In this document: one piece after another, positions 44,519-62,109 of the stretch
Position numbering within the stretch: position 1 is the stretch's first letter
Layout: each line of letters starts with the position of its first letter
NCBI GenBank assembly: GCA_903858755.1
Contig: CAIOKC010000029.1
Coordinates: 1,059 to 65,058 of the forward strand
Direction: 5' to 3'
DNA from: an uncultured bacterium
GTDB lineage: Bacteria; Patescibacteriota; Minisyncoccia; Phycocordibacterales; UBA2100
DNA length: 64,000 bases
The notes under the pieces: model-generated
What the model saw: the letters and a program-made list of their open reading frames with translations, nothing else
The model's database searches: none
What the model was told of the DNA's origin: nothing
Position numbers and translations under genes: made by a program

Positions 44519-44600
44519 GGGGGTAGATGCATAAGGATGATCTCAAGGATGATCACACGGAGGGTCTATAGAATGCGGCGCGGAGATTTGGTACAGTACG

Positions 44601-46040: not shown

Positions 46041-46101
46041 GCAATCCACAGACTGCATATTCGCTCTGTTCTCGGGCGAGAATCGGCTTTATACTGTATC
46101 T

Positions 46102-47034: not shown

Positions 47035-47436
47035 AAGGGGGAGATCGGACCCTTGCAGCATCTTTTCTCAAACTCTCGAGACGCAAAGACCTTCACAGGG
47101 GTCTTTTCGCCAATCCACTGCCGAGATATGCCGAGATACCTATGTAAATCGTATCTCGGATCGACTAATTCTCATATCGTCTCTTACAGATTCGAGCGAT
47201 TCTTCTGGGCAGCTACCACCACAGGTCCCGTATTCCGTGGCTTTTTTACCGACCCCCCAACCAAGGCTTACCATTGCGCCGCATCTAAGCCGTTTATCTG
47301 ATTTTCTTTCTGACCCCATCTTCTTTTACGATCCTAAATCTCCGCATTGTTCTTATCCCCATGTTTTTGCACCGGATATCAACACGATATCCCAAAAAAG
47401 ACCTAGAATACTAGATAAGTCGTGCATCCGAACATC

Positions 47437-50400: not shown

Positions 50401-52239
50401 ACCGCGACTTCGTCGTTCTCATCCGCTGGCGTCCTCACACTCGCTGGATCCTTGGACGGTCCACTTCAGGCAAACGCTGGCGTAGTATCCGCGACCACTT
50501 CAATCGGACTTCTCTACGGCGGTACGGGAGCGACGAGTGCGAGCGGCGCGCGCACGAATCTCGGTGCGGCGGCATTGGGAGCAAATTCAGACATCACATC
50601 ACTCTCTGGTCTCACGACCGCGCTCTCAGCTGCGCAGGGCGGCACCGCAACGACTACATGGCTCACTGGCGGTATCGTCTTTTATGACGGCTCGACACTC
50701 TCTCAAGGAGCGGTAGCGGCGGATTTCTTCCTCGACCGTACCAACAAACGCCTCGGTGTGGGCACCTCCACTCCATGGGCGCAGCTGAGCGTGAATCCAA
50801 ACGCGCTCGGCAGCGGCGTGCCGGAATTCGCCGTCGGTTCCTCGACCGCGACGCACTTCCTGATCGACGGCGCAGGCAAAGTCGGCATCGGCACCACCAC
50901 GCCCGGCTCGCTCTTCTCCATACAAAACTCCGCCAACTTCGTCGCGAGCGCCACTTCCACTATCTACAACGGTCTTTCCACGCCGTACCTCTCCGTCACC
51001 GGCACATCTGCCACGAGCACCTTCGCCAATGGCATCAATCTCTCGGGCGGCTGCTTTGCCGTGAATGGCACCTGCGTCGGGAGCGGCGGCGCGAGCCTTT
51101 TCACCGACGGCGGCGCGACATCGTATCTCACTTCCACGAGCGACAATCTTGCGGTCGGCACCTCGACCGCATATTCCAAGCTCTCCGTCTGGGGCGCGGG
51201 TACCGGTACAGGGCAGCTCTTCGAACTCACGAACAGCGCTTCGACCACCATCGCGAAATTCCTCGACAACGGCACCGGATACTTCCTCGGCAATATCGGC
51301 ATCGGCACCACCTCGCCCTATCGCAAACTCTCACTCACCGACGCCGTCTCGACGGCGCAAGTCGCGATCGCATACGATGGTACGCGCTACACCGAATTCC
51401 TCACCAATTCGGTCGGCGATCTCGTCATAAATCCGCAGGGCGACGACGCCTTTCTGAACGACGACAACCTCTGGGTCTGCACCGGCGGCTCCTGCCCTTC
51501 GAACAATCCGACAGGCACGGGCAATCTCGTCGTCGAGAACAAACTCGCGATCGGCACCACCACGCCCGATTCGAAGCTCGTGATCGAGACGCAGGACGCG
51601 ACCACCGACTTCCTCCGCATCGCATCTTCGACCGCGCAGGCGCTCCTCGTCTTCGACGAGCGCGGCTACTTGGGCGTGGGCACTTCGACGCCGACGAAGC
51701 AGTTCTCGATAGACAAAGGTCTGTATGTCGGCAACGGTCAGCCCTCCGCGATCGGCACCGCGACCTCCACCATCCAGGGCGACCTCCTCATCACCGGCAA
51801 GCTCGATGTATCGACCATCGACCCCGTATACACCATCGACGGTATGAAATATGCGACATACGGGGCTTCCACCATCGGCATTCGCGAAGAGATGCTCTCG
51901 ACCGTGCGGCTCGATTCGATAGGCGAGAGCGGCAAATACGAGTACCGTATTCCGTTTAGCAGCGTGAAGAAAGATTCGGATGAATGGCTCTTTTATCAAA
52001 TCACGGATTTTGGCAGCGACTGGAGCAATCTCGTCGTTTCGCTCACGCCGTCGTTCGAAGGGAGCGTGTACTACAAGAAAGATATCGCCGCGAATGCGCT
52101 CGTCATCTATGCAGATGCACCGGGCGAGATCTCGATGCGCCTCTCTGCGTATCGCTACGATTTCACGAAGTGGGGCAACGTCCGACCGGATCAGGACGAC
52201 GCTTCGTTCCCCGGGCACGTGATCGATTCGAAGAAATAG
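47437..52239 (+). CDS. Giant (~1600 aa) membrane-anchored fibrous surface protein with an N-terminal HTH_17-like motif, S/T/A/G-rich repeats and tail-fibre-like GIGTT(S/T)P repeats
   Basis: Start taken at ATG 47437 (MSDEIFFDGVKYISASEAGDRSNLSRDYIARLCRVGTIRGRRIGTHWYV), paralogous to the 46102 gene N-terminus. TM at ~180 (LTALSLAVMLTLGTYAFV). Two ~50-aa near-identical internal repeats (LNTANANSWTALQSFANASS...AYFGATATSSFSSAG). Repeats KVGIGTTTPGSLFSI / NIGIGTTSPYRKLSL / KLAIGTTTPDSKLVI / YLGVGTSTPTKQFSI. Confidence 0.6.
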   Translation: MSDEIFFDGVKYISASEAGDRSNLSRDYIARLCRVGTIRGRRIGTHWYVQEGSLSSFLMSKEYSRSQRQESLSEERLREYHGASADSAIPAMRKTTSGIFAPVPAQTRGFSLQQHPIVRTHAYDVKKLFEQTLAKNGGTTYASASRIGSAPAGFAHAALAHIPASVHVPAHIISPLAEFIHKLTALSLAVMLTLGTYAFVDPQYARYAADTIASDVGEALGAYRASTGGGIGVAAYRAQSQLAAAAENPIGTFASIQTAFGNGFQTIARSVNSRIDDLVYDIAFPENLVRSLGIVDSSRARVSIGVAPFASSTASATPVNTVQSKQPHTVINQPVVERIVETQRILSAGGITEEILHARLQQLDAKLSAQMYGLTAANSSPVFVSAPQYAPAPVIALAQATRIDQLASVDISGSTWVGGSISGASISGSSVSATTLSSSGDTSLATTTVSGSLAITSGTASTNPFVVKDNTGTTVFAVANDGTLTTSVSSSTSSYSQLLITGSATATTLYASNLIVSQLASTTNVLTSNSTTTNATSTNLFSTLAHFTTGIIDALTATAATITGLIATNATTTNATSTNLAVTNLTSFAAPIAPYFTATSTSIASTLPYASTTAISGTTAQFTTASSTNLVVSGAATLSSLASDSLLYANASKNAAAASVGSSLVFSSGTLSLNTANANSWTALQSFANASSSKFSVFDSAYFGATATSSFSSAGALTLATPLVQGSGGTGFSSYTAGDILYADNIGTVSKLPVGSAGQVLKVQAGLPAWGTDNTGGGGGGSGSSMWATTTLNLIYPVDTSYPVAIGSNSTSTPNSIFEVSGQQYISSKLGIATTSPVTALSVGGNAYLTGGLGVGVFNSSAGTLQTSGAAVIGGSLTVNGLSGAVSASGGVLSAGTLAIANGGTGTTTAPVGHLLYGGSSAYQSVATSSLAVGSSLSVSGTLGYQVGGSNATFSLNTANANSWTALQSFANASSTLFSNIGTAYFGATATSSFSSAGVLTLAGSLDGPLQANAGVVSATTSIGLLYGGTGATSASGARTNLGAAALGANSDITSLSGLTTALSAAQGGTATTTWLTGGIVFYDGSTLSQGAVAADFFLDRTNKRLGVGTSTPWAQLSVNPNALGSGVPEFAVGSSTATHFLIDGAGKVGIGTTTPGSLFSIQNSANFVASATSTIYNGLSTPYLSVTGTSATSTFANGINLSGGCFAVNGTCVGSGGASLFTDGGATSYLTSTSDNLAVGTSTAYSKLSVWGAGTGTGQLFELTNSASTTIAKFLDNGTGYFLGNIGIGTTSPYRKLSLTDAVSTAQVAIAYDGTRYTEFLTNSVGDLVINPQGDDAFLNDDNLWVCTGGSCPSNNPTGTGNLVVENKLAIGTTTPDSKLVIETQDATTDFLRIASSTAQALLVFDERGYLGVGTSTPTKQFSIDKGLYVGNGQPSAIGTATSTIQGDLLITGKLDVSTIDPVYTIDGMKYATYGASTIGIREEMLSTVRLDSIGESGKYEYRIPFSSVKKDSDEWLFYQITDFGSDWSNLVVSLTPSFEGSVYYKKDIAANALVIYADAPGEISMRLSAYRYDFTKWGNVRPDQDDASFPGHVIDSKK

Positions 52240-52246
52240 TATCAGA

Positions 52247-52978
52247 ATGATCGATTTACGAAATCACTCATCATATGGAGCTGTATCATGTGCTGAACAG
52301 GGGAGTCGATAAGCGAACTATCTTCATGCGTTCGGCGGATTATGCACGTTTCGTGCACGATATGTATGAATTCAATGACTCAAAACCAGCTAAGAATGCA
52401 AGTCGTAGCTTCGACCCATCAATGAGTGATTTCTCAATGAGTGATTTCGCAAATCGCTCATTGGAGCGGAAAAGAATTGTCGATATACATGGGTGGTGCC
52501 TGATGAAGAATCACTATCATTTGTTGGTATCAGAGCGGGTTGAGGGCGGTCTGACACTTTTTATTCGAAAGCTTAACGTGGGATACGCCAACTACTTCAA
52601 CGACGCATACAAACGGAGCGGTGCCCTTTTCCAGGGCAGGACGAAAAAGATACAGATCGCATCTGATGCGCATTTTCTCCACATGCTCCACTACATCCAT
52701 CTCAATCCGCTTGATTATGTCGCTGGCGCGAAATCCTGGCGCGCCGGTGGAATCTCTGATGTGCGCGCCGCCCGTGCGCAGTTGCAAAAGTATCGATGGA
52801 GCAGCTATCTCGACTACTGCGGTAAAAAGAACTTTCCGTCTGTTATTACAACGGACTTCATGCGCTCGTCGCTCGGCGACATCGAGAGAAAGACAATGGA
52901 GTATTTTGGAAAAATGGATCTGCCAGACATGAAGCACTACGTGCTCGAGTAGTATGAGTGATTTACGAAATCACTCAT
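52247..52978 (+). mobile_element. REP/RAYT unit 2: RAYT gene with upstream (imperfect), internal (in-frame) and downstream REP2 palindromes ATGAGTGATTT-NNN-AAATCACTCAT
   Basis: Copies at 52247-52271 (two mismatches), 52437-52461 (inside the CDS, one mismatch, plus an extra half-site at 52422-52433) and 52954-52978 (perfect). The perfect copy overlaps the start codon of the next gene. Confidence 0.6.
52275..52952 (+). CDS. REP-associated tyrosine transposase-like protein (Y1 HuH) paralog 2
   Basis: MELYHVLNRGVDKR...MKNHYHLLV (HuH)...AHFLHMLHYIHLNPLDY...YRWSSYLDY. Carries an in-frame ~11-aa insertion (SMSDFSMSDFANRSLE) encoded by REP2-like sequence, relative to paralog 1. Confidence 0.65.
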   Translation: MELYHVLNRGVDKRTIFMRSADYARFVHDMYEFNDSKPAKNASRSFDPSMSDFSMSDFANRSLERKRIVDIHGWCLMKNHYHLLVSERVEGGLTLFIRKLNVGYANYFNDAYKRSGALFQGRTKKIQIASDAHFLHMLHYIHLNPLDYVAGAKSWRAGGISDVRAARAQLQKYRWSSYLDYCGKKNFPSVITTDFMRSSLGDIERKTMEYFGKMDLPDMKHYVLE

Positions 52979-55900
52979 TGCGAAAGGGTGCGACTCGGGC
53001 TGATATAATGAGCGGAATGGGAGAAATGGGAGAGAATGTGCGACGTCTATTCGCGCTCGCGTTTGTGTTGCCGCTCTTTTTTGTTTTCGCGTACTTACTA
53101 CCCACGAGCGACACAGGACCCGTCCAGTTTGCCGACGCGCAGCTGGGGCGGTATGAAGTGGATTATTCGCTGCGGTTCAACGACGACGATAGTCCGTACC
53201 TCACCAAGACGTTTACGCAGGTCGGCTCGACGACGAAGTGGACTTTCAGTACATGGGTGAAGCCGGGCAATTTGAGCATAGACAGGTATCTCCTGGACGC
53301 CTATGTCGACGCGAACAACAGGACGTATATCGCGCTTGTGTCTTCAAATGCGCTGCAATTCGCCGACTACAGCGGCGGCTCCGCGAGATGCAACAAAATA
53401 ACATCCGCGCTCTTCCGTGACCCCGCCGCGTGGACGCACATCGTGGTTGCGGTGGATACGACACAGGCGACCGCCGCAAATAGGAATCGCATTTATGTGA
53501 ACGGCACGGAGATCACCTCTTTCAGCACTGACACGAATTGCACGCAAAATATCTCGACGTGGATAACCGACGACAACGACAATGCCGGGAGCAACGTAGT
53601 GCACAATCTCGGCAGGTATGGAGGAGGGTCGGCTTATTTCGACGGCTACCTTTCCGAAGCGTACCTCGTCGACGGGCAGCAGCTCACTCCCTCCTCCTTC
53701 GGCTTTTCCGATTCCAACGGCTACTGGCGTCCGAAGGCGTATCTCGGCACTTCAAGCGGCGCGAATAGTTTTTTCGGCACCAACGGCTTTTATTTCAACT
53801 TCGCCTCGACGACCGCGCTCGGCTGGAACCTCGCCTCGACCAGCGCCGCAACTGCCGCATGGACAGCGACCAATCTCGATGCGACGGATCAGACGATAGA
53901 CACGCCGTCGCACACATTCGCCGCTTTCAACAGTCTCGATAAATCAGGGACTGCCGGTACGTACAGCAACGGTAACTTGGTTTGGCTGAACTCGGCGGCT
54001 ACTGGCAACTACGCCCAAGCATACGGGTCAATTTCGATGACGAGTGGAAAATGGTACGCCGAATTCTACATGAATGATGTTACTAATGGTGCACCCGGGT
54101 TTATATTAGGAACAACAAATCCAGGCACTAACAGGTATTTGGGTCAAGATACTTACTCGTACTCGTATATAAGTGACGGCCGCAAGGTTAACAATAGTTC
54201 TTTTACAGCATACGGTGCTTCCTTCACAGTGGGAGATACCGTAAGTGTTACGATAGACGCGGATGCTGGGTCAGTGACCTTTTATAAAAACTGTTCAAGC
54301 CAAGGTGTAGCGTTTAGCGGCCTGACAGGACCGTTCCGCTTTGCCATCGACGGGGAAATAAACGGCGGGGCGAATGCGAATTTCGGACAACTCAAACACG
54401 CAACTTCTACGGCAACAGCGAACACCTTTAGAGACAGCGCTGGGGGGCACTTCATGTGTGCTCCGCCCTCCGGCTACAAAGCCCTCTCGACCGCCAATCT
54501 GCCCGACGTGGCGATACAGAAGCCGGCGAATTATTTCGACGCCGTCGCGTATACGGGAGACGCCGGAGCGACGAAGTCGATCTCGTCTCTCGCTTTTGCT
54601 CCGAGTCTTGTCTGGCTCAAAAACAGGTCGAGCGCGTATAGCCACACGCTTTTCGACGCGATACGAGGCGCGGGGAGCGGCATGTGCCTTTTTTCCAATG
54701 GAACAAACGCGGAAGGCGGCAACTGCGATTCGACCTACGGCTACCTTTCCTCCTTTGACTCGCTCGGATTTACCGTCACCAAAGGCAGCGACGCGACGAG
54801 CTACACCAACGGCTCAGGGCAGAACTACATCGCCTGGAACTGGAAAGAATCCGCAACGAGCGGGTTTGATATCGTCACCTACACCGGGGATGGGAATTCG
54901 TCCAAGACCGTAGGGCATTCGCTCGGGAGCGCGCCCGACTTTGTGATCCAGAAAAGCAGGAACGCGACCGGAGGCTGGCCAGTATATCATCGCTCGCTCG
55001 GCGCCACGGGTGCCGTGCAATTGGAATCCACCGGCGCGTTCAACGTGAGCAGCACATATTGGAACGACACGGCACCGGACGCGACAAACATAACGATAGG
55101 GTCGGGTCTCAACACCAATGGAACCACATATATTTTGTATGCGTTTGACGAAAAAGAAGGCTTCTCCAAATTCGGCTCATACACCGGCAACGGCTCCGCC
55201 GACGGACCGTTCGTTTACACGGGCTTCAAGCCGCGCTTTATCATGTTCAAGCGTACAGATACCGCTTCTGCCAATGCAGACTGGTTCATTCTTGATACGT
55301 CTCGTCTTTCATATAATCCAAACAATCTGTTTCTTTTTCCTGATTTGACCAATGCCGAGAACGCAGCTGGCCTACATTCTGCCGATTTCCTATCGAACGG
55401 ATTCAAGGTGCGCAATACTGGCGATGGCATGAACGCCTCCGGCGGCACCTACGTCTACGCCGCCTTCGCCGAGCAGCCGTTCAAACTTTCGGCGACCAAC
55501 AGTTTCTCGTGGTACGCGAATCTCTTCGGCGCCTCGGGCGAGACCATATTTACGAAAGCAGTGTCTATTACCGGCAATCTCTCGGTCCAATACCAGCTTT
55601 CCAAGGGCGCGGGCACGTTCGTCATCGACCACCCGCTTGATCCGAAAAATAAACTGCTCTATCACTCGTTCGTCGAATCACCGGATCAGAAAAATATCTA
55701 CGATGGGCTAGCGGAATTAGACGAAAATGGCGAGGCTGTCGTGGAGCTGCCGGATTATTTCCTCGCCCTCAACACCGACTATCGCTACCTCGCCACACCC
55801 ATAGGCGAGCCCATGCCTGATTTGCACCTCGACCGCGGCGTCGTGCGCCGCTGGCTTGGGCTTATCGGCGCGCCTGCATTCAAGCTCTCGGGGGGAGTGC

Positions 55901-56046
55901 CCGGCGGGCGCGTCTCCTGGCAGGTATCCGGCGTGCGCCAAGATCCGTATGCCCTCGACCACCCCATCACTCCCGAGGCGGAAAAAGGACCAGACCAGCT
56001 CGTCGACAAAGGGGAGTACCTCCACCCGGAATTCTATGCCAACTAA
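52954..56046 (+). CDS. Giant (~1030 aa) membrane-anchored LamG/concanavalin-A-like jelly-roll protein with a conserved ~170-aa C-terminal module
   Basis: The first 9 codons (MSDLRNHSL) are the REP2 palindrome itself. The true start may be ATG 53008. TM LFALAFVLPLFFVFAYLL. WTFSTWVKPGNLS...AWTHIVVAVD...NRIYVNGTEI is the LamG-type signature, and a second jelly-roll-like segment lies around 54000-54450. The C-terminal module GAGTFVIDHPLDPKNKLLYHSFVESPDQKNIYDG... is shared with the genes at 56806 and 57384. Confidence 0.55.
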   Translation: MSDLRNHSLRKGATRADIMSGMGEMGENVRRLFALAFVLPLFFVFAYLLPTSDTGPVQFADAQLGRYEVDYSLRFNDDDSPYLTKTFTQVGSTTKWTFSTWVKPGNLSIDRYLLDAYVDANNRTYIALVSSNALQFADYSGGSARCNKITSALFRDPAAWTHIVVAVDTTQATAANRNRIYVNGTEITSFSTDTNCTQNISTWITDDNDNAGSNVVHNLGRYGGGSAYFDGYLSEAYLVDGQQLTPSSFGFSDSNGYWRPKAYLGTSSGANSFFGTNGFYFNFASTTALGWNLASTSAATAAWTATNLDATDQTIDTPSHTFAAFNSLDKSGTAGTYSNGNLVWLNSAATGNYAQAYGSISMTSGKWYAEFYMNDVTNGAPGFILGTTNPGTNRYLGQDTYSYSYISDGRKVNNSSFTAYGASFTVGDTVSVTIDADAGSVTFYKNCSSQGVAFSGLTGPFRFAIDGEINGGANANFGQLKHATSTATANTFRDSAGGHFMCAPPSGYKALSTANLPDVAIQKPANYFDAVAYTGDAGATKSISSLAFAPSLVWLKNRSSAYSHTLFDAIRGAGSGMCLFSNGTNAEGGNCDSTYGYLSSFDSLGFTVTKGSDATSYTNGSGQNYIAWNWKESATSGFDIVTYTGDGNSSKTVGHSLGSAPDFVIQKSRNATGGWPVYHRSLGATGAVQLESTGAFNVSSTYWNDTAPDATNITIGSGLNTNGTTYILYAFDEKEGFSKFGSYTGNGSADGPFVYTGFKPRFIMFKRTDTASANADWFILDTSRLSYNPNNLFLFPDLTNAENAAGLHSADFLSNGFKVRNTGDGMNASGGTYVYAAFAEQPFKLSATNSFSWYANLFGASGETIFTKAVSITGNLSVQYQLSKGAGTFVIDHPLDPKNKLLYHSFVESPDQKNIYDGLAELDENGEAVVELPDYFLALNTDYRYLATPIGEPMPDLHLDRGVVRRWLGLIGAPAFKLSGGVPGGRVSWQVSGVRQDPYALDHPITPEAEKGPDQLVDKGEYLHPEFYAN

Positions 56047-56053
56047 CCTCCAC

Positions 56054-56793
56054 AGCAAGGTCCGACCTTGCTCAGACGCCTGGGTCGGCGTATTCGAGCC
56101 AGTCATGCACGGATTTTCTGAACGTAGCAGGGCTTTCAAAATACTCGGGCAGTGCTGTTGTGTCGACAATTTTTCTTTCGGGACGCTTTGTGCCGGCGTA
56201 GTCCGCGAAGCTCGAGTAGCGAAATTTCTCCAGGAATTCTTTTGTCCGAGATTGGTCTTTGATGCCGTTCTCTTTCCACTTCGAATCGATCAGCTTTACC
56301 GGATTCAAGTGGATGTACGATACGAGATACTTAAGATACCGATCGTTGCCCGCATGCTCGGCTTTATACTTGCCCTGGAAGAGCGCGCCAACTCGCTGGT
56401 AGCGCATATTAAAATACATTGCGTACGCGGTCGTGAGCTTCTGCATAAAAGTACTGATCCCGGAGTCGGAGCGTTCTCGTGCGAGAATGTGGAAGTGATT
56501 CGGCATCAGACAATAGGCGCATATGTCGATAAGCGGCTCGCCTCGGGTCTCGCCGAGCGCCGCGCTGAGCAGGGTTTTGCCTTTTGCGCGGCTGAGGTTG
56601 TCGAGCCGGATGGTTTCGGAGCCGTTGGCGAGGTAGAGGAGAGCAAGAAATCGCTCGTAGTCGGCTTTATTTTGGAATATTTTGCGTTTTTCCGTGCCGC
56701 GATTGTACAGGTGATAATATTCCTCTGGCGCGAACTCGATCTGTCTCGTCATGCCGCCAATGATACCATGGGACGAGCAAGGTCCGACCTTGC
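56054..56793 (-). mobile_element. REP/RAYT unit 3: RAYT gene flanked by REP3 palindromes AGCAAGGTC-C-GACCTTGCT
   Basis: Perfect 9-1-9 palindromes at 56054-56072 (overlapping the RAYT stop codon) and ~56775-56793. A third copy lies in a GT4 gene at 18867-18885. Confidence 0.6.
56072..56752 (-). CDS. REP-associated tyrosine transposase-like protein (Y1 HuH) paralog 3
   Basis: MTRQIEFAPEEYYHLYNRGTEKR...MPNHFHILA (HuH)...YLVSYIHLNPVKL...FRYSSFADY. Coordinates follow the ORF track. My own codon count placed the ATG 1 nt lower. Confidence 0.65.
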   Translation of the reverse strand: MTRQIEFAPEEYYHLYNRGTEKRKIFQNKADYERFLALLYLANGSETIRLDNLSRAKGKTLLSAALGETRGEPLIDICAYCLMPNHFHILARERSDSGISTFMQKLTTAYAMYFNMRYQRVGALFQGKYKAEHAGNDRYLKYLVSYIHLNPVKLIDSKWKENGIKDQSRTKEFLEKFRYSSFADYAGTKRPERKIVDTTALPEYFESPATFRKSVHDWLEYADPGV

Positions 56794-56805
56794 TATGGGA
56801 TACGT

Positions 56806-57387
56806 ATGAGCTTCACAAAGAGAATTGCCGCGCTGTTTGTCTTGTGCATTATGCTCGGGGCGGTTTCCGTCGCGCAGGGCGCGGTGAGCACGATATCCAT
56901 AACAACGAATACGCAAGTGGCGTCGAATCTCGACGTGCGCGGCTCCGTCTCAAAAGGAAGCGGCACCTTCGTCATCGATCACCCGCTCCACCCGCGCTCC
57001 ATGCTTCTGTACCATTCGTTCGTCGAGTCGCCGGACGCGAAGAACGTATACGACGGCATCGCTCGTCTCGATGAGAACGGGGAGGCGGCGATACAGCTGC
57101 CAGAGTATTTTGAAGCGCTCAACGAGAATTTCAGATATCAGTTTTTCCCTATAGACGAAGCGATGCCGCATCTCTACATCAAGCAGGAAGTGCGGGACAA
57201 CGCATTCGTCGTTGCCGGAGGCGAGCCGCGCGGCAGGATTTCGTGGCAGGTGACGGGCGTCCGCCACGACCCCTTCATCGTTGCACATCCGATCCGCGTG
57301 GAAGTGCCGAAAGGCGCGGGTCAACCTGTCAACAAAGGAGAATACCTTTTTGGAGGATACGAGCAGGATACGGAACCGTCGCCATGA
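56806..57387 (+). CDS. Secreted stand-alone copy of the ~170-aa shared C-terminal module
   Basis: Signal peptide MSFTKRIAALFVLCIMLGAVSVAQGAVS. GSGTFVIDHPLHPRSMLLYHSFVESPDAKNVYDGIARLDENGEAAIQLPEYFEALNENFRYQ...RISWQVTGVRHDPF aligns with the C-termini of the 52954 and 57384 genes. Confidence 0.55.
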   Translation: MSFTKRIAALFVLCIMLGAVSVAQGAVSTISITTNTQVASNLDVRGSVSKGSGTFVIDHPLHPRSMLLYHSFVESPDAKNVYDGIARLDENGEAAIQLPEYFEALNENFRYQFFPIDEAMPHLYIKQEVRDNAFVVAGGEPRGRISWQVTGVRHDPFIVAHPIRVEVPKGAGQPVNKGEYLFGGYEQDTEPSP

Positions 57388-58130
57388 ACGAAAGAAAAAA
57401 TCACGCTCTGATCCTGGCGGCATATCTCGCTTTGTTCCCAGGGTCTACCTTGGCGTATAGTCAGGGCACATACTACAGCCAGTCGTACTATCAGTCGTAT
57501 TACCAATCTTACTACCAGTCCTACTATCAGGGGTACTACCAGGGCGGATACTACTCGCAGGCGTCGTACGGCGTTACGTTCACGACTCCGGTGACAGCGC
57601 TTGGAAATGTGTCGGTCTCTGGCGCGATAGGGAAAGGCGGCGGGTCGTTCGTCATCGACCATCCGCTCGATCCCGCGAACAAACTTCTCTACCACTCGTT
57701 TGTCGAATCTCCGGAGGTGAAAAATCTGTATGACGGCATCGCTACGCTCGACGCGAAAGGCGAGGCGGTCGTCCAACTCCCCCGTTACTTCGAGGCTTTG
57801 AATAAGGATTTCCGCTATCAGCTGAAGGGGTTGGACAAAGCGGCTCCGGATATCCATGTGAAAAAAGAGATTTCACACAACCGGTTCACGATCGCGGGAG
57901 GGCAGCCGGGCGCGCGGGTCTCCTGGCAAGTGACGGGTGTCAGGAAAGACCCGTACATTCTCGCGAACCCGATTATCCCTGAGGTCTCCAAGAGTAAGGA
58001 TGCGCTTCTCGGGGTCGGACAGTACGTCTATCCAGAAGGGTACGGGCTCGGGGAGTATTCGCCGATGAAGTATAGCTTTCAATTTTTCGCGGGAGTACGC
58101 GCTTTGATAGAGAACGTCATACGGTTGTAG
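57384..58130 (+). CDS. Secreted Tyr/Gln-repeat (YYQS)n protein + shared C-terminal module
   Basis: Start at ATG 57384 (MNERKNHALILAAYLALFPGSTLAYS signal). YYSQSYYQSYYQSYYQSYYQGYYQGGYYSQASY low-complexity tract, then GGGSFVIDHPLDPANKLLYHSFVESPEVKNLYDGIATLDAKGEAVVQLPRYFEALNKDFRYQ. ATGA overlap with the upstream stop. Confidence 0.55.
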   Translation: MNERKNHALILAAYLALFPGSTLAYSQGTYYSQSYYQSYYQSYYQSYYQGYYQGGYYSQASYGVTFTTPVTALGNVSVSGAIGKGGGSFVIDHPLDPANKLLYHSFVESPEVKNLYDGIATLDAKGEAVVQLPRYFEALNKDFRYQLKGLDKAAPDIHVKKEISHNRFTIAGGQPGARVSWQVTGVRKDPYILANPIIPEVSKSKDALLGVGQYVYPEGYGLGEYSPMKYSFQFFAGVRALIENVIRL

Positions 58131-58133
58131 AAT

Positions 58134-59327
58134 GTGTCCATGCATCGGCTATCCGTTATCGCGGTCGCAGGTCTTGCCGCATGCGCGCTCGCCGTGTACT
58201 TCCTGGGCGTCTGGACACCGTATACGGAAGCGCGGACCATCGCGCGCGGCGCGGCCGATTTCAAGGAACTATCGGATCGATTCGCGGCGCTTGCGGAGAG
58301 GAAAGGAGCGGAGTACGCGTTTGAAGTGCTGCGTCGGACCCAATTTCCTCCGCAGACAGATCTTCATTTGCTCGGTCATGTGGTCGGCGATGAGCTCTAC
58401 AAACAGAAGGGCATAGAGGGAATCGCCGTCTGCACGCAGGATTTCCGGAATGCTTGCTCGCACTCCATCGTCATTGGTGCGCTAGATGAATACGGCGGTG
58501 AGGAAGCGCTCGGGCTCGTACGCGATGCGTGCGAGAAAGCGCCCGGAGGACCAGGCGCGTACACGATGTGCTACCACGGACTCGGACACGGCGTCTTCGC
58601 TTTTTTTGGATATGATCTCACGCCGACCGTCGCGTTCTGCGAGAAGACCGGCACCGAACGTTATCATGAGCAAGAGTATACGGAGTGCGTGGGCGGGGCG
58701 ATTATGGAGCTTATGGGTGGAGGCGGGCACGATCGCGAGGCGTGGCTCACGGCGAGAGTGAAATATTTGTCGGAAGACAACCCTCTGCTGCCTTGCATGA
58801 GCGGCGAGGTACCCGACCAGGCGAAAGCGCTATGCCTCGTCTACCTCACGCCGCGCCTTCTTGAGCTTGCCGGTGCAAACCTGGGGAATCCCGATCAGGC
58901 GCTTTTCCCAAAAGCGCTCGCATTCTGCGACGCGATACCGGCTTCGGAGCAAGAGCTGCGCGATGCGTGCTTCGGCGGATTCGGGAAAGAATTTGTGCCG
59001 CTTGCCGGGAAGCGCGATATCCGCCGAGTCGACGAGTTCACGGACCAGGAGTACAAGACCGCGATCGGCTGGTGCTTGCTCGCGGAATCGGACGACGGGC
59101 GGAGGGCATGCATCGCCGATGCGGTCGCCTCGGTCTTTTGGGGTGGCGAGAACGATCCGGAGGCGTCGTTCAGATTCTGTAAACTTGCGGAGGGAGTGTC
59201 GCGGGACGCTTGCTACAAGAGACTTGCTGAGGATATCGGAAGGTACGCGCAAGAGGATATCCGCAGCGATCTTTGCAGTCGTATCCCCGCAGATTCCCGA
59301 GGCGCGTGCGTTTCTTCCGGCTCATGA
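58134..59327 (+). CDS. N-terminally anchored Cys/His-rich extracytoplasmic protein, paralog 1
   Basis: TM SVIAVAGLAACALAVYFLGVW. ~17 Cys. Conserved motifs CTQDFRNACSH, MCYHGLGHGVFAFFGY, ECVGG, DACFGGFG. Confidence 0.5.
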   Translation: MSMHRLSVIAVAGLAACALAVYFLGVWTPYTEARTIARGAADFKELSDRFAALAERKGAEYAFEVLRRTQFPPQTDLHLLGHVVGDELYKQKGIEGIAVCTQDFRNACSHSIVIGALDEYGGEEALGLVRDACEKAPGGPGAYTMCYHGLGHGVFAFFGYDLTPTVAFCEKTGTERYHEQEYTECVGGAIMELMGGGGHDREAWLTARVKYLSEDNPLLPCMSGEVPDQAKALCLVYLTPRLLELAGANLGNPDQALFPKALAFCDAIPASEQELRDACFGGFGKEFVPLAGKRDIRRVDEFTDQEYKTAIGWCLLAESDDGRRACIADAVASVFWGGENDPEASFRFCKLAEGVSRDACYKRLAEDIGRYAQEDIRSDLCSRIPADSRGACVSSGS

Positions 59328-60364
59328 TGCAGTACCGCGCCGCCCTTGTGTTCGGGCTCACTCTCCTTTTCGCAGGCGCGATTGTCATCTTCGGTGATGG
59401 GAGAACGACGATTTCCCCCGTCTCGGGACGAATCACCTCGTGGGAGGAGAAGATACGAGAGTACGGCGGAGCGCCTGCATATGAAATCCTTGCACAGGAT
59501 GTCGAGCGCTCGAGCGCTGAAGAGAAACATACGGCAGCGCATAATTTCGGGGCCGCGCTGTATCTCGTGGAAGGCGAGAACGGCCTTTTCGTTTGCGACA
59601 GCAGGTTTTCGTTCGGTTGTTTCCACGAATTTCTCGGCCGCGCGATCTCCGACCTCGGTATCGAGTCCGTCAAGAGGCTGAACGAAGGGTGTGTGGAGGC
59701 ACTCGGACCAATGGCGCTCTCGTGCCAGCACGGCATCGGACATGGCATACAAGCGTACTTCGGCTATACCGAGGATGCGTTGCGCGATGCCCTGCCCGTC
59801 TGCAGGGATCTTCCGTACAATGATCCAATCGGCGGATGCTACGGCGGTCTCTTCATGGAATACAATTTGGAGACCATGCTCGGCGAAGACGCCGTTGTTC
59901 GCGCACCGGAGGCAGGCGATCTCCAAGCCCCGTGCGACGACCTGTCGGAAGCGTACGCGCAAGCGTGCTATTTCTGGCAGCCGCAGTGGTGGCGGCAGAC
60001 GCTTCGGTCGGAAGGCGTCGTCGACGCTGAAAGTGCGTACGAGCGCATCGGGGAGCTATGTGACGAAGCCGGTGGCATATTCGCGCGCGCGTGCTTCGAA
60101 GGAGTGGGCAATAATATTCCTGTCGACGCCGATTTCGACGCGCGTGTGGCGAAGCGTCTGTGCGAAGTCGCGTCCGACGACTCTACGAAGCGTCTCTACT
60201 GCAAGTCGCTCGCGGCGAACTCTCTTGGCGTCGGCGGTGCCGGGAAGAAGGGCGACGCCGAGGCGGTGTGCGAGGGGCTCGCGGGAGATTCGCTCGCGTA
60301 CTGCATCGGGTATGCGCACAATACTCTCAATATCGCGGAGCCGGGCAAGTTCATTTCCGAATAA
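59324..60364 (+). CDS. N-terminally anchored Cys/His-rich extracytoplasmic protein, paralog 2
   Basis: Start at ATG 59324 (MMQYRAALVFGLTLLFAGAIVIF), ATGA overlap with paralog 1. Motifs CDSRFSFGCFH, SCQHGIGHGIQAYFGY, GCYGG, ACFEGVG. Confidence 0.5.
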   Translation: MMQYRAALVFGLTLLFAGAIVIFGDGRTTISPVSGRITSWEEKIREYGGAPAYEILAQDVERSSAEEKHTAAHNFGAALYLVEGENGLFVCDSRFSFGCFHEFLGRAISDLGIESVKRLNEGCVEALGPMALSCQHGIGHGIQAYFGYTEDALRDALPVCRDLPYNDPIGGCYGGLFMEYNLETMLGEDAVVRAPEAGDLQAPCDDLSEAYAQACYFWQPQWWRQTLRSEGVVDAESAYERIGELCDEAGGIFARACFEGVGNNIPVDADFDARVAKRLCEVASDDSTKRLYCKSLAANSLGVGGAGKKGDAEAVCEGLAGDSLAYCIGYAHNTLNIAEPGKFISE

Positions 60365-60409
60365 TCGTGCAAGAATCCGCCTTCCAGGAAAATGATATAG
60401 TAGCCGGAC

Positions 60410-61570
60410 ATGCGCGTTCGCCTCGGGCTGGTGTTTTTCATAGGGGTCGCGATCGCTCTTTGTGTCTTGGCGAGCAGAGGCGGATCAGCCGACGCTCTGG
60501 CACAAAAGATCTCGACTGCGTGCCGCAATGCTGCCGATGCGGCGAAGTGCTACGAACAGGAAGTGCCGACTCTATACCCAAGGCACGCGGTCTCTGAGGT
60601 TTTCGATGTCGTGCGGGAGATACGGCACAACGATCCCTCGTATCAATTCTGTCATGTGCTCGCGCATCGGCTCGGGGAGCGAGTCGTTGCCGAGGACCCC
60701 GACCACTGGATTGACGCGATACCGCTCAACCCGCCGGACGGTCTTTGCTCCAATGGATTCATCCACGGCGTTGTGGGGGGTCGGTTTCGCGCGGAAGTTC
60801 TTGACGACGAGACGGTCCGGGCGTTCATCCCGGATTTTGCTCGCGCCTGCGAAGCGCGGGACAGCTGGCGACCGAGCGATCTCGATCGGGCGATTTGCTA
60901 CCATGGTATGGGGCATTTGTATACTTTCATCACCGACGCAGATATCCCAAAAGCACTCGACATATGCGACAAGACGACGCCGGGCGACATGCATCGCGTC
61001 TGCATCGAGGGCGTATTCATGCAGATCTACCAGCCGCTCGAGCCGGACGATTTCCTCATGCTCGAGCGCATGGATGACCGACCGTCGACGACGACCGTGC
61101 GGCGGTATTGCGCGCATTTTGACGACGACCGATACGAGGGGGCGTGCTTGAGGGAAAGCTGGCCGTATTTCAAGGATGAAATCCTTTCCGGCGAAGGCGC
61201 CGAGCGTTTTTGTTCCGGGCAACCTTCTTTCGAGGAGACGCGCGCATGTTTCGATTCGATATCTTCGATCGTCGGTCGCATGTCTCTCAACGAGCCGAAT
61301 AACGCCGTGCGTGCATGCGGGAAGTTCCCATCGTCGTTCAAGGAAACGTGTTTTGCGGCGACTGCACAGGCGGTGCTTGAAGAGAATCGATCCGACAGCG
61401 AAGCAGCGATCGGCATATGTAAAAGCGCGGGAGCGCAAGAGCGTCCGTGCGTCGAGGCGCTCCTTTTGAGAGCGGGGTTTGTTTTCGGGAGCGATACGAA
61501 GCGGTATACTGATTTTTGCCGGCGTCTTCCAGACGACCTGCGATCACAATGTCTAAACACCGCGCAGTAG
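60410..61570 (+). CDS. N-terminally anchored Cys/His-rich extracytoplasmic protein, paralog 3
   Basis: TM LGLVFFIGVAIALCVLA. Motifs YQFCHVLAH, ICYHGMGHLYTF, VCIEGVF, many CxxxC pairs. More divergent than paralogs 1 and 2. Confidence 0.5.
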   Translation: MRVRLGLVFFIGVAIALCVLASRGGSADALAQKISTACRNAADAAKCYEQEVPTLYPRHAVSEVFDVVREIRHNDPSYQFCHVLAHRLGERVVAEDPDHWIDAIPLNPPDGLCSNGFIHGVVGGRFRAEVLDDETVRAFIPDFARACEARDSWRPSDLDRAICYHGMGHLYTFITDADIPKALDICDKTTPGDMHRVCIEGVFMQIYQPLEPDDFLMLERMDDRPSTTTVRRYCAHFDDDRYEGACLRESWPYFKDEILSGEGAERFCSGQPSFEETRACFDSISSIVGRMSLNEPNNAVRACGKFPSSFKETCFAATAQAVLEENRSDSEAAIGICKSAGAQERPCVEALLLRAGFVFGSDTKRYTDFCRRLPDDLRSQCLNTAQ

Positions 61571-62109
61571 CTTTGCTTCTCACGATTTTCGCGGCGCTGC
61601 CAGCGACGGTTGCCGAGGCTCATGCGCTCGACCCCTCGTTCGAGGTGCAGGTCGGCGAGTACCTCGTTGATATCGGATATGAACCGGATCCTCTGACTTC
61701 GGAGACGTACGCGCGCTTTAGCTTTGAGCTTTGGCTCAACGAACGAGGCAACCCGGTAGAGTACTCGCACGTGTGGGTGCGCATCATGCGGGATTCGACG
61801 ACGCTTTTCGCAAGCGGTATTCACCGGCAGGCGGTCGGTCCCACGACGCTTCTGTACACATTCCCGGATGCTGGAGCATATGTGCTGGATATAAGCTATC
61901 GGACCGAAGATAGCGAAGTGGCGGCGACCGAGATCCCGATCACAGTGACGCGGGGCGCAGACGGGAATCGCTCTGTGTTTGCCGTCTCGATCGTCGCTTT
62001 CTGCGCACTTCTTGCTGCAGCAGCCTTGTCCGCATGGCGCGGGGCGTGGCGGACTCCGTTCAGGTTTTGGCAGAGGCGCGATTTGGATCAGGGGGATATT
62101 TCCCGCTGA
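61549..62109 (+). CDS. Small secreted protein (beta-sandwich-like) with C-terminal TM anchor. The predicted mature N-terminus begins with His
   Basis: Start at ATG 61549 (MSKHRAVALLLTIFAALPATVAEA | HALDPSFEVQV...), overlapping paralog 3 by 22 nt. The C-terminal TM is VFAVSIVAFCALLAAAAL. Confidence 0.4.
   Translation: MSKHRAVALLLTIFAALPATVAEAHALDPSFEVQVGEYLVDIGYEPDPLTSETYARFSFELWLNERGNPVEYSHVWVRIMRDSTTLFASGIHRQAVGPTTLLYTFPDAGAYVLDISYRTEDSEVAATEIPITVTRGADGNRSVFAVSIVAFCALLAAAALSAWRGAWRTPFRFWQRRDLDQGDISR

What the first reader, a model, noticed from the sequence alone, without database searches (positions are those of the whole stretch)
55560..58130. A ~170-aa module shared by the C-terminus of the LamG giant and two downstream small secreted genes, with RAYT-3 inserted between them
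The segment G(A/S)G(T/S)FVIDHPL(D/H)P(K/R/A)(N/S)(K/M)LLYHSFVESP(D/E)xKN(I/V/L)YDG(L/I)AxLDxxGEAxVxLPxYFEALNxxFRYQ...R(V/I)SWQV(S/T)GVRxDP occurs at 55590-56040 (end of the LamG gene), 56930-57380 and 57640-58020. Pairwise identity is ~55-65% at the protein level. The small genes each have their own signal peptide. The arrangement (full-length protein plus stand-alone tip cassettes, with a transposase between them) resembles receptor-binding-tip cassette systems or a polymorphic adhesin locus.
Basis: seen in the sequence. Interest (0 to 1): 0.6.

Follow-up and report, generated by a model that had tools for sequence, protein, structure and literature searches.

The report
Conserved triad of tail-fibre-knob proteins
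The three copies are real, but they are three old, separately conserved genes of a surface-protein gene cluster found in many ultra-small (CPR/Patescibacteria) bacteria, all ending in an unnamed domain related to the tips of phage tail fibres; they are not swappable cassettes.

Summary
Observation confirmed. A ~160-aa module ends the 1030-aa LamG/SPRY/DUF7483 protein (55543-56043) and makes up most of two downstream signal-peptide proteins (56806-57387, 57384-58130). Identity is 53-56% aa, E 1e-56 to 7e-63.

The cassette reading is not supported:
- DNA identity is 56-59%, synonymous sites are saturated, dN is about 0.4, and the longest shared exact DNA is 16 nt.
- There is no invertase, crossover repeat or TR/VR pair.
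- Every copy has its own start codon and signal peptide.

In about 18 syntenic CPR genomes, a membrane-anchored giant is followed by three tandem module genes and then by Cys-rich helical paralogues. A tree splits the modules by array position, and the LamG C-terminus is the position-1 orthologue. Two other genomes have the same LamG/DUF7483 fusion at position 1 with no transposase.

The module has no Pfam, NCBIfam or PDB match. It occurs in about 15,000 50%-identity clusters across many phyla, nearly always C-terminal behind variable N-termini. It is homologous to phage minor-tail and tail-fibre C-termini (Mufasa8 gp19).

The RAYTs are separate ~750-bp units bracketed by palindromes.

Most likely function is a trimerising knob of a surface fibre or adhesin. 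An A/B/C heterotrimer is inferred, not shown.

The parts
52954..56046 (+). Large secreted protein (1030 aa as the ORF is listed; the likely true start is ATG 53008). It has an N-terminal hydrophobic signal/anchor, a LamG-like region, SPRY, DUF7483, and C-terminal module copy 1.
   Evidence: Pfam gives SPRY at 391-462 and DUF7483 at 523-842. PHROG 19943 'virion structural protein' scores E 3e-152 over residues 65-845, and PHROG 24898 'tail fiber' scores E 1.5e-68. P0156 and P0145 have the same architecture. The first 26 nt of the listed ORF are the right-hand palindrome of the upstream RAYT.
55543..56043 (+). Module copy 1, the position-1 (A) type. It carries the 8-aa insertion RRWLGLIG typical of position 1.
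   Evidence: HMM hit at aa 871-1037 of the stop-to-stop ORF, 292 bits. Its nearest relatives are L017_1 and L019_1, and it falls in the position-1 clade.
56806..57387 (+). Small secreted protein (193 aa, = P0001): signal peptide, ~25-aa linker, then module copy 2 (position-2/B type, module at 56893-57354).
   Evidence: The AlphaFold model has pLDDT 88.3, with an N-terminal helix at 3-25 and a beta-sandwich at 54-168.
57384..58130 (+). Small secreted protein (248 aa from ATG 57384): signal peptide, a Tyr/Gln/Ser-rich YYQS repeat, then module copy 3 (position-3/C type, module at 57573-58046).
   Evidence: The start overlaps the upstream stop as ATGA, which suggests translational coupling (an inference).
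56072..56752 (-). Y1 HUH transposase gene (RAYT/IS200-like, 226 aa) inserted between module genes 1 and 2.
   Evidence: Pfam Y1_Tnp, E 1.5e-11. It is 36-38% identical to the two other Y1 genes of the window. The HFH and Y-I-H-L-N-P motifs are visible in the alignment.
56054..56072 (.). Left palindrome AGCAAGGTCCGACCTTGCT bracketing the RAYT.
   Evidence: family D16. It is identical to the copy at 56776-56794.
56776..56794 (.). Right palindrome AGCAAGGTCCGACCTTGCT bracketing the RAYT.
   Evidence: D16. The two copies are 722 nt apart.
52275..52952 (+). Second Y1 transposase gene (225 aa), between the upstream giant and the LamG gene. It is bracketed by its own palindrome ATGAGTGATTTACGAAATCACTCAT at 52246-52271 and 52954-52979.
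   Evidence: Pfam Y1_Tnp; (D10, I8). RAYT homologues occupy the same giant-to-triad intergenic slot in L006 and L014 and are also bracketed by paired palindromes.
47422..52239 (+). Upstream giant (1605 aa): HTH_17-like N-terminus, a predicted TM helix, Ser/Thr/Ala/Gly-rich fibre repeats (IGTTTP motifs) and a conserved C-terminal domain. It is the constant upstream partner of the triad.
   Evidence: Weak HTH_17 and excisionase matches. Its C-terminal ~300 aa is 44-57% identical to the protein just upstream of the triad in L001, L002, L006, L014, L019, L083, L084 and others. Internal repeats appear (D1-D5).
58134..61570 (+). Three tandem Cys-rich secreted paralogues (397, 363 and 386 aa). They are the constant downstream partners of the triad.
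   Evidence: Orthologues sit directly after the triad in nearly all syntenic loci at 45-66% identity. More than 1100 homologues were found; the few that carry a source name are CPR. The AlphaFold model has pLDDT 92.9 and is an all-alpha repeat, with only generic ARM/HEAT-type PDB matches.

Best explanation
The three copies are the three members (A, B, C, in fixed order) of a conserved tandem triad of Sec-secreted proteins. The triad belongs to a chromosomal surface-protein gene cluster of Paceibacteria/Kaiserbacteria-type CPR bacteria. The cluster order is: HTH_17 protein, membrane-anchored giant fibre protein, triad, Cys-rich helical paralogues.

What the three share is an unannotated ~160-aa C-terminal beta-sandwich domain. 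It is homologous to the C-terminal domain of phage minor-tail and tail-fibre proteins. In cellular proteins of many phyla it is the constant C-terminal end behind variable N-terminal parts (nothing, LamG, SPRY/DUF7483, Gly-rich, collagen-like).

In this genome, as in at least two others, member A carries a large phage-fibre-like LamG/SPRY/DUF7483 head. Members B and C are essentially signal peptide plus knob.

Most likely mechanism (inferred): the domain is the C-terminal trimerisation and registration knob of a fibre or adhesin. The three co-transcribed paralogues assemble through it, possibly as an A-B-C heterotrimer, to display the lectin-like head on the cell surface for attachment.

The copies are old paralogues under purifying selection, not exchangeable cassettes. 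The two Y1 transposase genes are independent ~750-bp palindrome-bracketed IS200/RAYT-type units that landed in intergenic gaps of the cluster. They have no demonstrated role in it.
For: Shown:
- Copies are real, at E 1e-56 to 7e-63.
- dS is saturated, dN is 0.38-0.40, and the longest shared exact DNA is 16 nt.
- Of 18 CPR loci with a complete array, 17 have exactly three module genes and one has four.
- An NJ tree gives three clades that match array position. 43 of 49 nearest other-genome neighbours have the same rank, or 47 of 49 if the L002 position-3 duplicate is counted as rank 3.
- Synteny of giant, triad and Cys-rich genes holds across loci, with SecA and GatB flanking both in the window and in L001.
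- LamG/DUF7483::module sits at position 1 in L083 and L084 without any RAYT.
- The family has 14,915 representative clusters, with the module almost always C-terminal, in more than 8 phyla.
- N-terminal domains vary, and no Pfam model covers the module.
- Phage homology: BFVD top hits are minor-tail, tail-fibre and collagen-repeat proteins (E 1.4e-10 and weaker, 20 hits at E<=1e-3). Mufasa8 gp19 is the last minor-tail gene after the tape measure and aligns at 32-33% identity with the FV(I/M)DHP...H..ESP...LDENGE..LPEYFEAL motifs conserved.
- Weak PDB matches are all C-terminal domains of trimeric tailspikes and fibres.
- All three RAYTs are bracketed by their own palindromes, and the same holds in L006 and L014.

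Inferred: trimer formation, from homology to trimeric phage fibres and fusion to collagen-type repeats. Heterotrimer formation, from the fixed count of three, fixed order, tight or overlapping gene spacing and position-specific signatures. Adhesion role, from signal peptides, lectin-type heads and the CPR epibiotic lifestyle (general knowledge).
Against:
- Single-gene homologues in other phyla and in phages show that homotrimers suffice.
- In L001 the three modules have been homogenised (a 173-nt identical tract). This argues against strictly chain-specific interfaces. It also shows that recombination between array members does occur in the family.
- Cross-phylum conservation of 50-55%, with many invariant polar residues (K, D, H, H, E, S, N, D, R, D), is unusual for a purely structural knob. 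It could mean a conserved ligand, a metal site or a catalytic site.
- There are no expression or localisation data. Promoter and terminator scans were uninformative.
- Insertion of the convergent RAYT between genes 1 and 2 may have split the operon in this genome.
Confidence: 0.75

Rival explanations
1. Three independent homotrimeric knob proteins. Each paralogue forms its own homotrimer with its own N-terminal part and target, and the triad is simply a conserved paralogous family rather than one hetero-complex.
For: - Non-CPR bacteria and phages carry the domain in single genes, so homotrimers must work.
- Arrays of 3-5 large module proteins exist in Acidobacteriota (L041, L067).
- L001 has homogenised modules but keeps distinct N-termini.
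- N-terminal extensions occur on different positions in different genomes.
Against: - The count of exactly three, in fixed order, with position-specific clades, holds across distant CPR lineages.
- Genes B and C often carry almost nothing but the knob, which gives a homotrimer little to display.
- The genes are tightly spaced or overlapping.
Confidence: 0.3
2. One reading: a receptor-binding-tip cassette or antigenic-variation system, in which the small genes donate alternative C-terminal tips to the LamG gene by recombination, with the transposase involved.
For: - The layout looks like one long gene followed by short copies of its 3' end, with a transposase between them.
- The module is related to phage fibre tips.
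- Gene-conversion tracts between array members exist in other genomes: L001 173 nt, L019 83 nt.
Against: - In the window the copies share at most 16 nt of exact DNA, have 56-59% nucleotide identity and saturated dS.
- The small genes are complete, on the same strand, with signal peptides.
- The module is the most conserved part, not the variable part.
- Positional orthology holds across genomes.
- There is no invertase, integrase or RT and there are no crossover repeats.
- The identical architecture exists without a RAYT in L083 and L084.
- Y1 HUH enzymes act on their own flanking hairpins, which are present. They are not known to swap cassettes (general knowledge).
Confidence: 0.04
3. The module is a C-terminal cell-envelope anchor or ligand-binding (lectin- or metal-dependent) domain. 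It tethers variable N-terminal payloads to the producer's own surface, or binds one conserved glycan. It is not primarily an oligomerisation knob.
For: - The C-terminal position is constant while N-termini vary.
- Conservation is extreme, with about ten invariant polar residues across phyla and in the phage homologue.
- The proteins are Sec-secreted.
Against: - The domain occurs both in CPR bacteria and in phyla generally regarded as diderm (Bacteroidota, Acidobacteriota, Planctomycetota, Verrucomicrobiota; envelope type is general knowledge), and in virion fibres of actinophages and cyanophages. These envelopes have no obvious common anchor target.
- A stand-alone anchor with no payload (genes B and C) makes little sense.
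- The nearest folds are trimer-forming distal domains of tailspikes.
Confidence: 0.15
4. A remnant of a prophage or tailocin tail-fibre module.
For: PHROG and BFVD matches to tail-fibre and virion proteins, HTH_17/excisionase-like domains nearby, and transposases in the region.
Against: - No other phage structural, packaging or lysis genes were found in the cluster.
- The locus is syntenic next to SecA and GatB in different genera.
- The proteins carry Sec signal peptides, which virion fibres are not expected to have (general knowledge, not tested here).
- The IMG/VR scan found only 6 distant loci.
Confidence: 0.03

Closest known systems
C-terminal domain of phage minor tail / tail-fibre proteins, e.g. 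Arthrobacter phage Mufasa8 gp19 (QGJ93469.1) and Prochlorococcus phage P-SSM2 tail-fibre-like protein Q58M60
   Same: Homologous domain. Sequence identity is 32-33% with the FVxDHP...H..ESP...LDENGE..LPEYFEAL motifs conserved. Foldseek E values run from 1.4e-10 to 6e-7. The domain is C-terminal, behind a fibrous or Gly-rich part, in the last gene of the tail block.
   Different: The window proteins are chromosomal, carry Sec signal peptides, are 50-65% identical among cellular phyla, and come as a fixed triad. Two of the three have no fibre shaft at all.
C-terminal beta-sandwich domains of trimeric tailspikes and fibres (Pam1 7eea, phi297 gp61 4ru5, Sf6 2vbk, R2 pyocin fibre 6cl6)
   Same: These are the only PDB fold neighbours, and all are distal domains of obligate trimers.
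   Different: The matches are weak (E 0.02-0.3, 70-90 aligned columns, TM about 0.3). There is no sequence similarity.
   Same: A long gene is followed by short genes that repeat its 3' end, and the theme is phage-fibre-related.
   Different: There is no recombinase, no crossover sites, no truncated or promoterless cassettes and no shared DNA tracts. The repeated part is the constant part, not the variable part.
Complement C1q (three tandem paralogous genes A, C, B whose C-terminal globular domains register a heterotrimer). This is an analogy from general knowledge, not homology.
   Same: Three tandem paralogues share a C-terminal beta-sandwich domain. That domain is found elsewhere behind collagen-type repeats. 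The gene number is fixed at three.
REP-associated tyrosine transposases (RAYT) / IS200-IS605 Y1 transposases
   Same: Y1_Tnp domain, HUH and Tyr motifs, a single-gene unit bracketed by a duplicated palindrome, and unit spacing of 685-754 nt.
   Different: Each of the three window copies has its own palindrome and they are only 36-48% identical to each other. Only one extra palindrome copy was seen in 64 kb, and it lies inside a coding sequence. No tnpB is present.

Membership tests
Invertible / shufflon-type tail-fibre tip cassette systems | Site-specific recombinase (Ser invertase or Tyr recombinase) encoded next to the cassettes | tested here: not met
   Pfam scans were run on 17 ORFs between 37 and 64 kb. 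They cover every ORF taken as coding from 41.3 to 63.7 kb. They gave only Y1_Tnp, HTH_17, SecA, GatB and similar families.
Invertible / shufflon-type tail-fibre tip cassette systems | Short inverted crossover repeats flanking alternative 3' segments, some in opposite orientation and lacking their own start | tested here: not met
   All three copies are on the + strand, each with its own ATG and signal peptide. The only notable paired repeats are the palindromes bracketing each RAYT.
Invertible / shufflon-type tail-fibre tip cassette systems | Constant 5' part joined to variable C-terminal tips | tested here: not met
   The polarity is reversed. The C-terminal module is near-invariant and the N-termini vary.
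Silent-cassette gene-conversion systems (pilE/pilS type) | Conserved DNA blocks shared by the expression locus and the cassettes, to act as recombination substrate | tested here: not met
   The longest exact matches are 11, 16 and 12 nt, with 56-59% nucleotide identity. The best shared tract is 33 nt at 85% (D6). Other genomes do show conversion tracts.
Silent-cassette gene-conversion systems (pilE/pilS type) | Within-population sequence mosaicism at the locus | not testable with these tools
   No read-level data are available. P0001 occurs on a single contig.
Diversity-generating retroelement target | Reverse transcriptase plus a template/variable repeat pair | tested here: not met
   No repeat pair of that kind was found in 43-64 kb, and none of the scanned ORFs has an RT domain. 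The rest of the window was not scanned for RT.
Phage tail-fibre / minor-tail C-terminal domain (Mufasa8 gp19-like; unnamed) | Significant sequence and fold similarity over the whole domain | tested here: met
   tblastn E 4e-10, BLASTP E 1e-16, and Foldseek BFVD E 1.4e-10 with 20 hits at E<=1e-3.
Phage tail-fibre / minor-tail C-terminal domain (Mufasa8 gp19-like; unnamed) | C-terminal position behind a fibrous or repeat region | tested here: met
   nearly all of the 150 representatives; Gly-periodic consensus upstream.
Phage tail-fibre / minor-tail C-terminal domain (Mufasa8 gp19-like; unnamed) | Homotrimeric assembly | not testable with these tools
   Only monomer prediction is offered.
Phage tail-fibre / minor-tail C-terminal domain (Mufasa8 gp19-like; unnamed) | Encoded in a virion tail gene block | tested here: not met
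   The locus is chromosomal, syntenic and flanked by housekeeping genes, and has no phage structural genes.
DUF7483-containing phage-fibre-like proteins (PF24299; PHROG 19943/24898) | Full-length match above the curated threshold | tested here: met
   DUF7483 scores 335 bits against a cut-off of 27. PHROG 19943 scores E 3e-152.
RAYT / IS200-type Y1 transposase unit | Y1_Tnp domain with HUH and catalytic Tyr motifs | tested here: met
   Pfam scores are above the cut-off for all three genes. The alignment shows NHYHLL / NHFHIL and Y-I-H-L-N-P. Assigning these motifs as catalytic rests on general knowledge.
RAYT / IS200-type Y1 transposase unit | Flanking palindromic (REP or subterminal hairpin) sequences | tested here: met
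   (D10, D14, D16), and for L006 and L014.
RAYT / IS200-type Y1 transposase unit | Many dispersed REP copies in the genome (needed for classing as RAYT rather than IS) | tested here: inconclusive
   Only one extra copy of the RAYT-2 palindrome was found in 64 kb, and it lies inside a CDS. The whole genome is not available.

The most novel reading that the evidence does not exclude
The three paralogues form an obligate A-B-C heterotrimeric knob, following the same logic as C1q. Together with the upstream membrane-anchored giant and the downstream Cys-rich helical proteins, this knob builds a phage-fibre-derived attachment appendage on CPR cells. Each chain is a socket onto which different N-terminal heads (LamG/SPRY/DUF7483, Gly-rich, repeats) have been grafted in different lineages. 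The unnamed domain, present in about 15,000 protein clusters across bacteria and phages, would then be a general fibre-registration module, and the CPR cluster would be a candidate host-attachment organelle.
Probability: 0.2. Interest if true: 0.7.

Novelty: new variant of a known kind. Interest (0 to 1): 0.4.

Why it matters
The cassette idea can be set aside, but three useful things remain.

1. There is a very large, strongly conserved, unannotated protein domain. It has about 15,000 50%-identity clusters and no Pfam, NCBIfam or PDB relative. It links phage tail-fibre tips to secreted cellular proteins in many phyla and is worth defining as a family.

2. CPR bacteria of the Paceibacteria/Kaiserbacteria type keep this domain as a fixed three-gene triad inside a conserved cluster of giant and Cys-rich secreted proteins next to core genes. 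How these unculturable epibionts attach to partners is an open question. This cluster gives a concrete, testable candidate.

3. The locus shows how a tandem paralogue array with a transposase inside it can mimic a cassette system. Positional orthology, dS and longest-shared-tract tests separate the two.

Tried and rejected
- Sequence searches of the module against Pfam, NCBIfam and PDB gave nothing: and (best E 0.12, a 45-residue chance-level match to Mycoplasma P116/MG075). PHROGs gave only weak hits (1e-5 to an unknown-function family).
- PDB Foldseek gave only weak matches.
- The exact-sequence context look-up found no record for P0001. The cluster look-up found P0001 but gave no name or accession, and did not find the 248-aa protein.
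- Five literature searches found nothing on this domain, DUF7483 or the cluster.
- The sigma-70 promoter and terminator scan was at background level.
- The IMG/VR scan found only six distant viral loci, so a recent phage origin is not indicated.
- I modelled the conserved downstream Cys-rich protein to look for a fibre-assembly chaperone. The model is confident (pLDDT 92.9) but is a generic alpha-solenoid with no specific match.
- Intramolecular-chaperone (Peptidase_S74-type) self-cleaving domain: considered and rejected. There is no Pfam hit, no S-D-x-R-x-K-type motif, and the stand-alone small proteins would have nothing to chaperone.
- Prophage remnant: considered and rejected (see rival explanations).

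Full report
**1. Observation**

ORF listing and alignment confirm one ~160-aa module in three + strand genes:
- the last 167 aa of the 52954-56046 ORF (1030 aa);
- most of 56806-57387 (193 aa);
- most of the ORF that starts sensibly at ATG 57384 (248 aa, ending at 58130).

An HMM of the module places the copies at 55543-56043, 56893-57354 and 57573-58046.

Pairwise BLASTP gives 53-54% identity at E 1e-56 and 7e-63. More than 60 columns are invariant, including the quoted G-x-G-x-F-V-I-D-H-P-L ... L-L-Y-H-S-F-V-E-S-P ... S-W-Q-V motif.

Both small proteins begin with a typical Sec signal. This is read from sequence, and AlphaFold models residues 3-25 as a single helix. The third gene has a YYQS repeat between the signal and the module.

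A Y1 transposase gene (Pfam Y1_Tnp, E 1.5e-11) lies on the minus strand at 56072-56752, between copies 1 and 2.

**2. What the large gene is**

Pfam finds SPRY (391-462) and DUF7483 (523-842). PHROGs match residues 65-845 to a 'virion structural protein' family (E 3e-152) and residues 520-846 to a 'tail fiber protein' family. The orthologue P0156 also scores Laminin_G_3 at residues 61-215.

So the protein is a phage-fibre-like lectin head, and the module starts about 25 residues after DUF7483 ends.

The listed ATG at 52954 lies inside the right-hand palindrome of the upstream transposase unit. The real start is probably ATG 53008, which precedes the hydrophobic segment RRLFALAFVLPLFFVFAYLL. 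The orthologues have a similar N-terminus.

**3. What the module is**

The module has no Pfam, NCBIfam or PDB-sequence match. None of 81 longer family members has a Pfam hit over it either.

It is nevertheless a very large family:
- More than 5,800 proteins at 90% clustering. The best hits are 180-290 aa long and, where named, come from Kaiserbacteria, Paceibacteria, Adlerbacteria and similar groups.
- 14,915 representative clusters at 50% identity with E<=1e-3, of which 6,640 have E<=1e-30.

In nearly all of the 150 best representatives the match runs to within about 40 residues of the C-terminus, in proteins of 140-1129 aa. Where recognisable, the N-terminal parts are Laminin_G_3 (10 of 81), Gly_rich_2 (5), DUF7483 (2), DUF5907 (2) and collagen repeats (1). 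Most others have Gly-periodic fibre-like sequence.

A scan of one genome per species finds the module at 50-64% identity in CPR, Bacteroidota, Chloroflexota, Acidobacteriota, Planctomycetota, Verrucomicrobiota, Ignavibacteriota and Zixibacteria. In two non-CPR examples it sat in ordinary chromosomal contexts.

The AlphaFold model (pLDDT 88.3) is a beta-sandwich spanning residues 54-168, preceded by an extended linker.

Fold and sequence comparisons point to phage fibres:
- Against solved structures, only weak matches appear, and the most confident ones (tailspike C-terminal domains) and many others are distal parts of trimeric phage tailspikes, fibres or receptor-binding proteins, interleaved with unrelated proteins such as a phosphorylase and SlyD: Pam1, K64-1 S2-4, phi297, Sf6, R2 pyocin fibre, TP901-1 RBP.
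- Against predicted viral structures there are 20 hits at E<=1e-3. The named ones are minor-tail, tail-fibre or collagen-repeat proteins; the rest are unnamed or uncharacterised. The best is Arthrobacter phage Mufasa8 minor tail protein (E 1.4e-10).
- Sequence search agrees. Mufasa8 and Sonali gp19 score 33-34% identity at E 4e-10 and 6e-9, and a cyanophage also hits.
- BLASTP to Mufasa8 gp19 gives E 1e-16 with the core motifs conserved.
- gp19 is the last minor-tail gene after the tape measure.

The module is thus a cellular branch of a phage tail-fibre C-terminal domain. Across 122 homologues, residues 46-85 and 146-155 are almost invariant. Only 86-95 and 112-135 vary moderately, so there is no hypervariable tip.

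**4. The three copies are a conserved triad, not cassettes**

Contexts of homologues and of 16 CPR loci from the genome scan show the same cluster. The order is: HTH_17 protein, HTH-TM giant, tandem small module genes, an orthologue of the 397-aa Cys-rich protein (45-66% identity), then further Cys-rich paralogues. In several loci, orthologues of the window's 386-, 197- and 537-aa genes follow.

SecA and GatB flank the cluster both in the window and in L001. It is therefore core chromosome and not a prophage.

Of 18 loci with a complete array, 17 have exactly three module genes. In two of these the third gene lies 5-6 kb away. One locus has four, through a recent duplicate of gene 3.

An NJ tree of 49 modules resolves three clades that correspond to array position. 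43 of 49 nearest other-genome neighbours have the same rank, or 47 of 49 if the L002 duplicate is counted as rank 3.

The window's LamG C-terminus falls in the position-1 clade, nearest to L017_1 and L019_1. The 193-aa protein falls in position 2 and the 248-aa protein in position 3.

Two other genomes (L083, L084) have a 978-aa or 944-aa LamG/DUF7483::module protein at position 1, a Gly_rich_2::module protein at position 2 and a small protein at position 3. Neither has a transposase. The fusion is therefore inherited, not made by the RAYT.

Within the window:
- the copies are 56-59% identical in DNA;
- proportional synonymous differences are 0.75-0.84, which is saturated;
- dN is 0.38-0.40;
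- the longest shared exact strings are 11, 16 and 12 nt;
- the best common tract is 33 nt at 85%.

No invertase, integrase or RT and no crossover or template repeats were found.

One caveat. In other genomes, array members do exchange sequence: L001 copies 1 and 2 share a 173-nt identical tract, and L019 copies 2 and 3 share 83 nt. This is homogenising conversion of the constant domain, not tip switching.

**5. The transposases**

The window has three Y1_Tnp genes: 43824-44546 (-), 52275-52952 (+) and 56072-56752 (-). They are only 36-48% identical to each other.

Each is bracketed by two copies of its own palindrome, 685-722 nt apart:
- AAACTAGGACACG(C/G)CGTGTCCTAGTTT;
- ATGAGTGATTTACGAAATCACTCAT;
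- AGCAAGGTCCGACCTTGCT.

Homologues in L006 and L014 occupy the same giant-to-triad intergenic slot as the window's 52275 gene. They are bracketed in the same way, with spacing of 744-754 nt.

These are compact IS200/RAYT-type units that have settled in intergenic gaps of the cluster. Such enzymes act on their own hairpins (general knowledge), and nothing links them to the modules.

**6. Mechanism**

*Shown.* The triad is a conserved set of secreted proteins ending in a phage-fibre-type C-terminal domain. That domain is the constant end of otherwise variable proteins.

*Inferred.* The domain is a trimerisation and registration knob. Its relatives are distal domains of trimeric fibres and it follows collagen-type and Gly-periodic shafts. 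The fixed number of three, the fixed order, the tight or overlapping spacing (ATGA at 57384) and the position-specific signatures suggest that A, B and C co-assemble, possibly 1:1:1. Examples of those signatures are the position-1 loop insertion and the frequent G-E-C-x-F-E-P-L-C ending at position 2. In this genome chain A would bring the lectin-like head.

Together with the membrane-anchored giant, this would form a surface fibre or adhesin, which is plausible for attachment in epibiotic CPR cells.

The main rival is three separate homotrimers. Single-gene homologues elsewhere, and the homogenised L001 array, keep that option open.

The many invariant polar residues leave room for a conserved ligand or metal site.

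**7. Verdict**

The cassette and transposase interpretation is not supported.

The finding is a new variant of a known kind (phage-fibre-derived surface proteins). It has two aspects worth recording: a very large unannotated domain family, and its conserved three-gene arrangement in a CPR surface cluster.

Noticed in passing
window 43804-44546, 52246-52979, 56054-56794: Each of the three divergent Y1 (RAYT/IS200-like) genes (36-48% identical to each other) is bracketed by two copies of its own distinct palindrome, 685-722 nt apart. They form compact ~750-bp units. RAYT homologues in L006 and L014 sit in the same giant-to-triad intergenic slot and are bracketed in the same way.
   Followed up: partly
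window 18868-18884: A third exact copy of the RAYT-2 palindrome core (GCAAGGTCCGACCTTGC) lies inside what reads as a glycosyltransferase coding sequence, where it encodes AARSDLAG. About 0.2 matches are expected by chance even when 3 mismatches are allowed. This is unexplained; it could be a target site, a relic or a coincidence.
   Followed up: partly
window 52954-53010: The listed ATG start of the LamG/DUF7483 ORF lies inside the right-hand palindrome of the upstream RAYT unit. The true start is probably ATG 53008, just before the hydrophobic signal/anchor segment.
   Followed up: partly
window 47422-52239 and 46027-47034: The 1605-aa giant has an HTH_17/excisionase-like N-terminus, then a TM helix and a Ser/Thr/Ala/Gly-rich fibre with IGTTTP-type repeats. 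It is preceded by a separate 335-aa HTH_17 protein. The same pair occurs in L001. A DNA-binding-type domain at the cytoplasmic end of a giant surface protein is odd.
   Followed up: partly
window 58134-61570: There are three tandem Cys-rich secreted paralogues (397, 363 and 386 aa) with about 14 invariant Cys and conserved His (for example C-x-H-G-x-G-H). They always lie downstream of the triad. The AlphaFold model has pLDDT 92.9 and is an all-alpha repeat. They have no Pfam match and no specific PDB match, and more than 1100 homologues were found, named ones being CPR.
   Followed up: partly
window 57465-57560: There is a Tyr/Gln/Ser-rich repeat (YYQS, about six copies) between the signal peptide and the module of the third triad protein.
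   Followed up: no
L001 10001-11945; L019 1777-2954; L008 9283-11174: Gene-conversion tracts occur between triad members in other genomes: 173-nt, 83-nt and 35-38-nt exact identities. In L001 all three modules are homogenised, yet the gene count stays at three.
   Followed up: partly
L041 7826-20422; L067 7733-15059: In Acidobacteriota the module occurs in tandem arrays of three to five large (700-1000 aa) proteins rather than small ones.
   Followed up: no
window 61516-63701: A 197-aa (+) gene and a convergent 537-aa (-) gene have no Pfam match. They are conserved at the distal end of the cluster in L010, L018, L083 and (the 537-aa gene only) L084.
   Followed up: no
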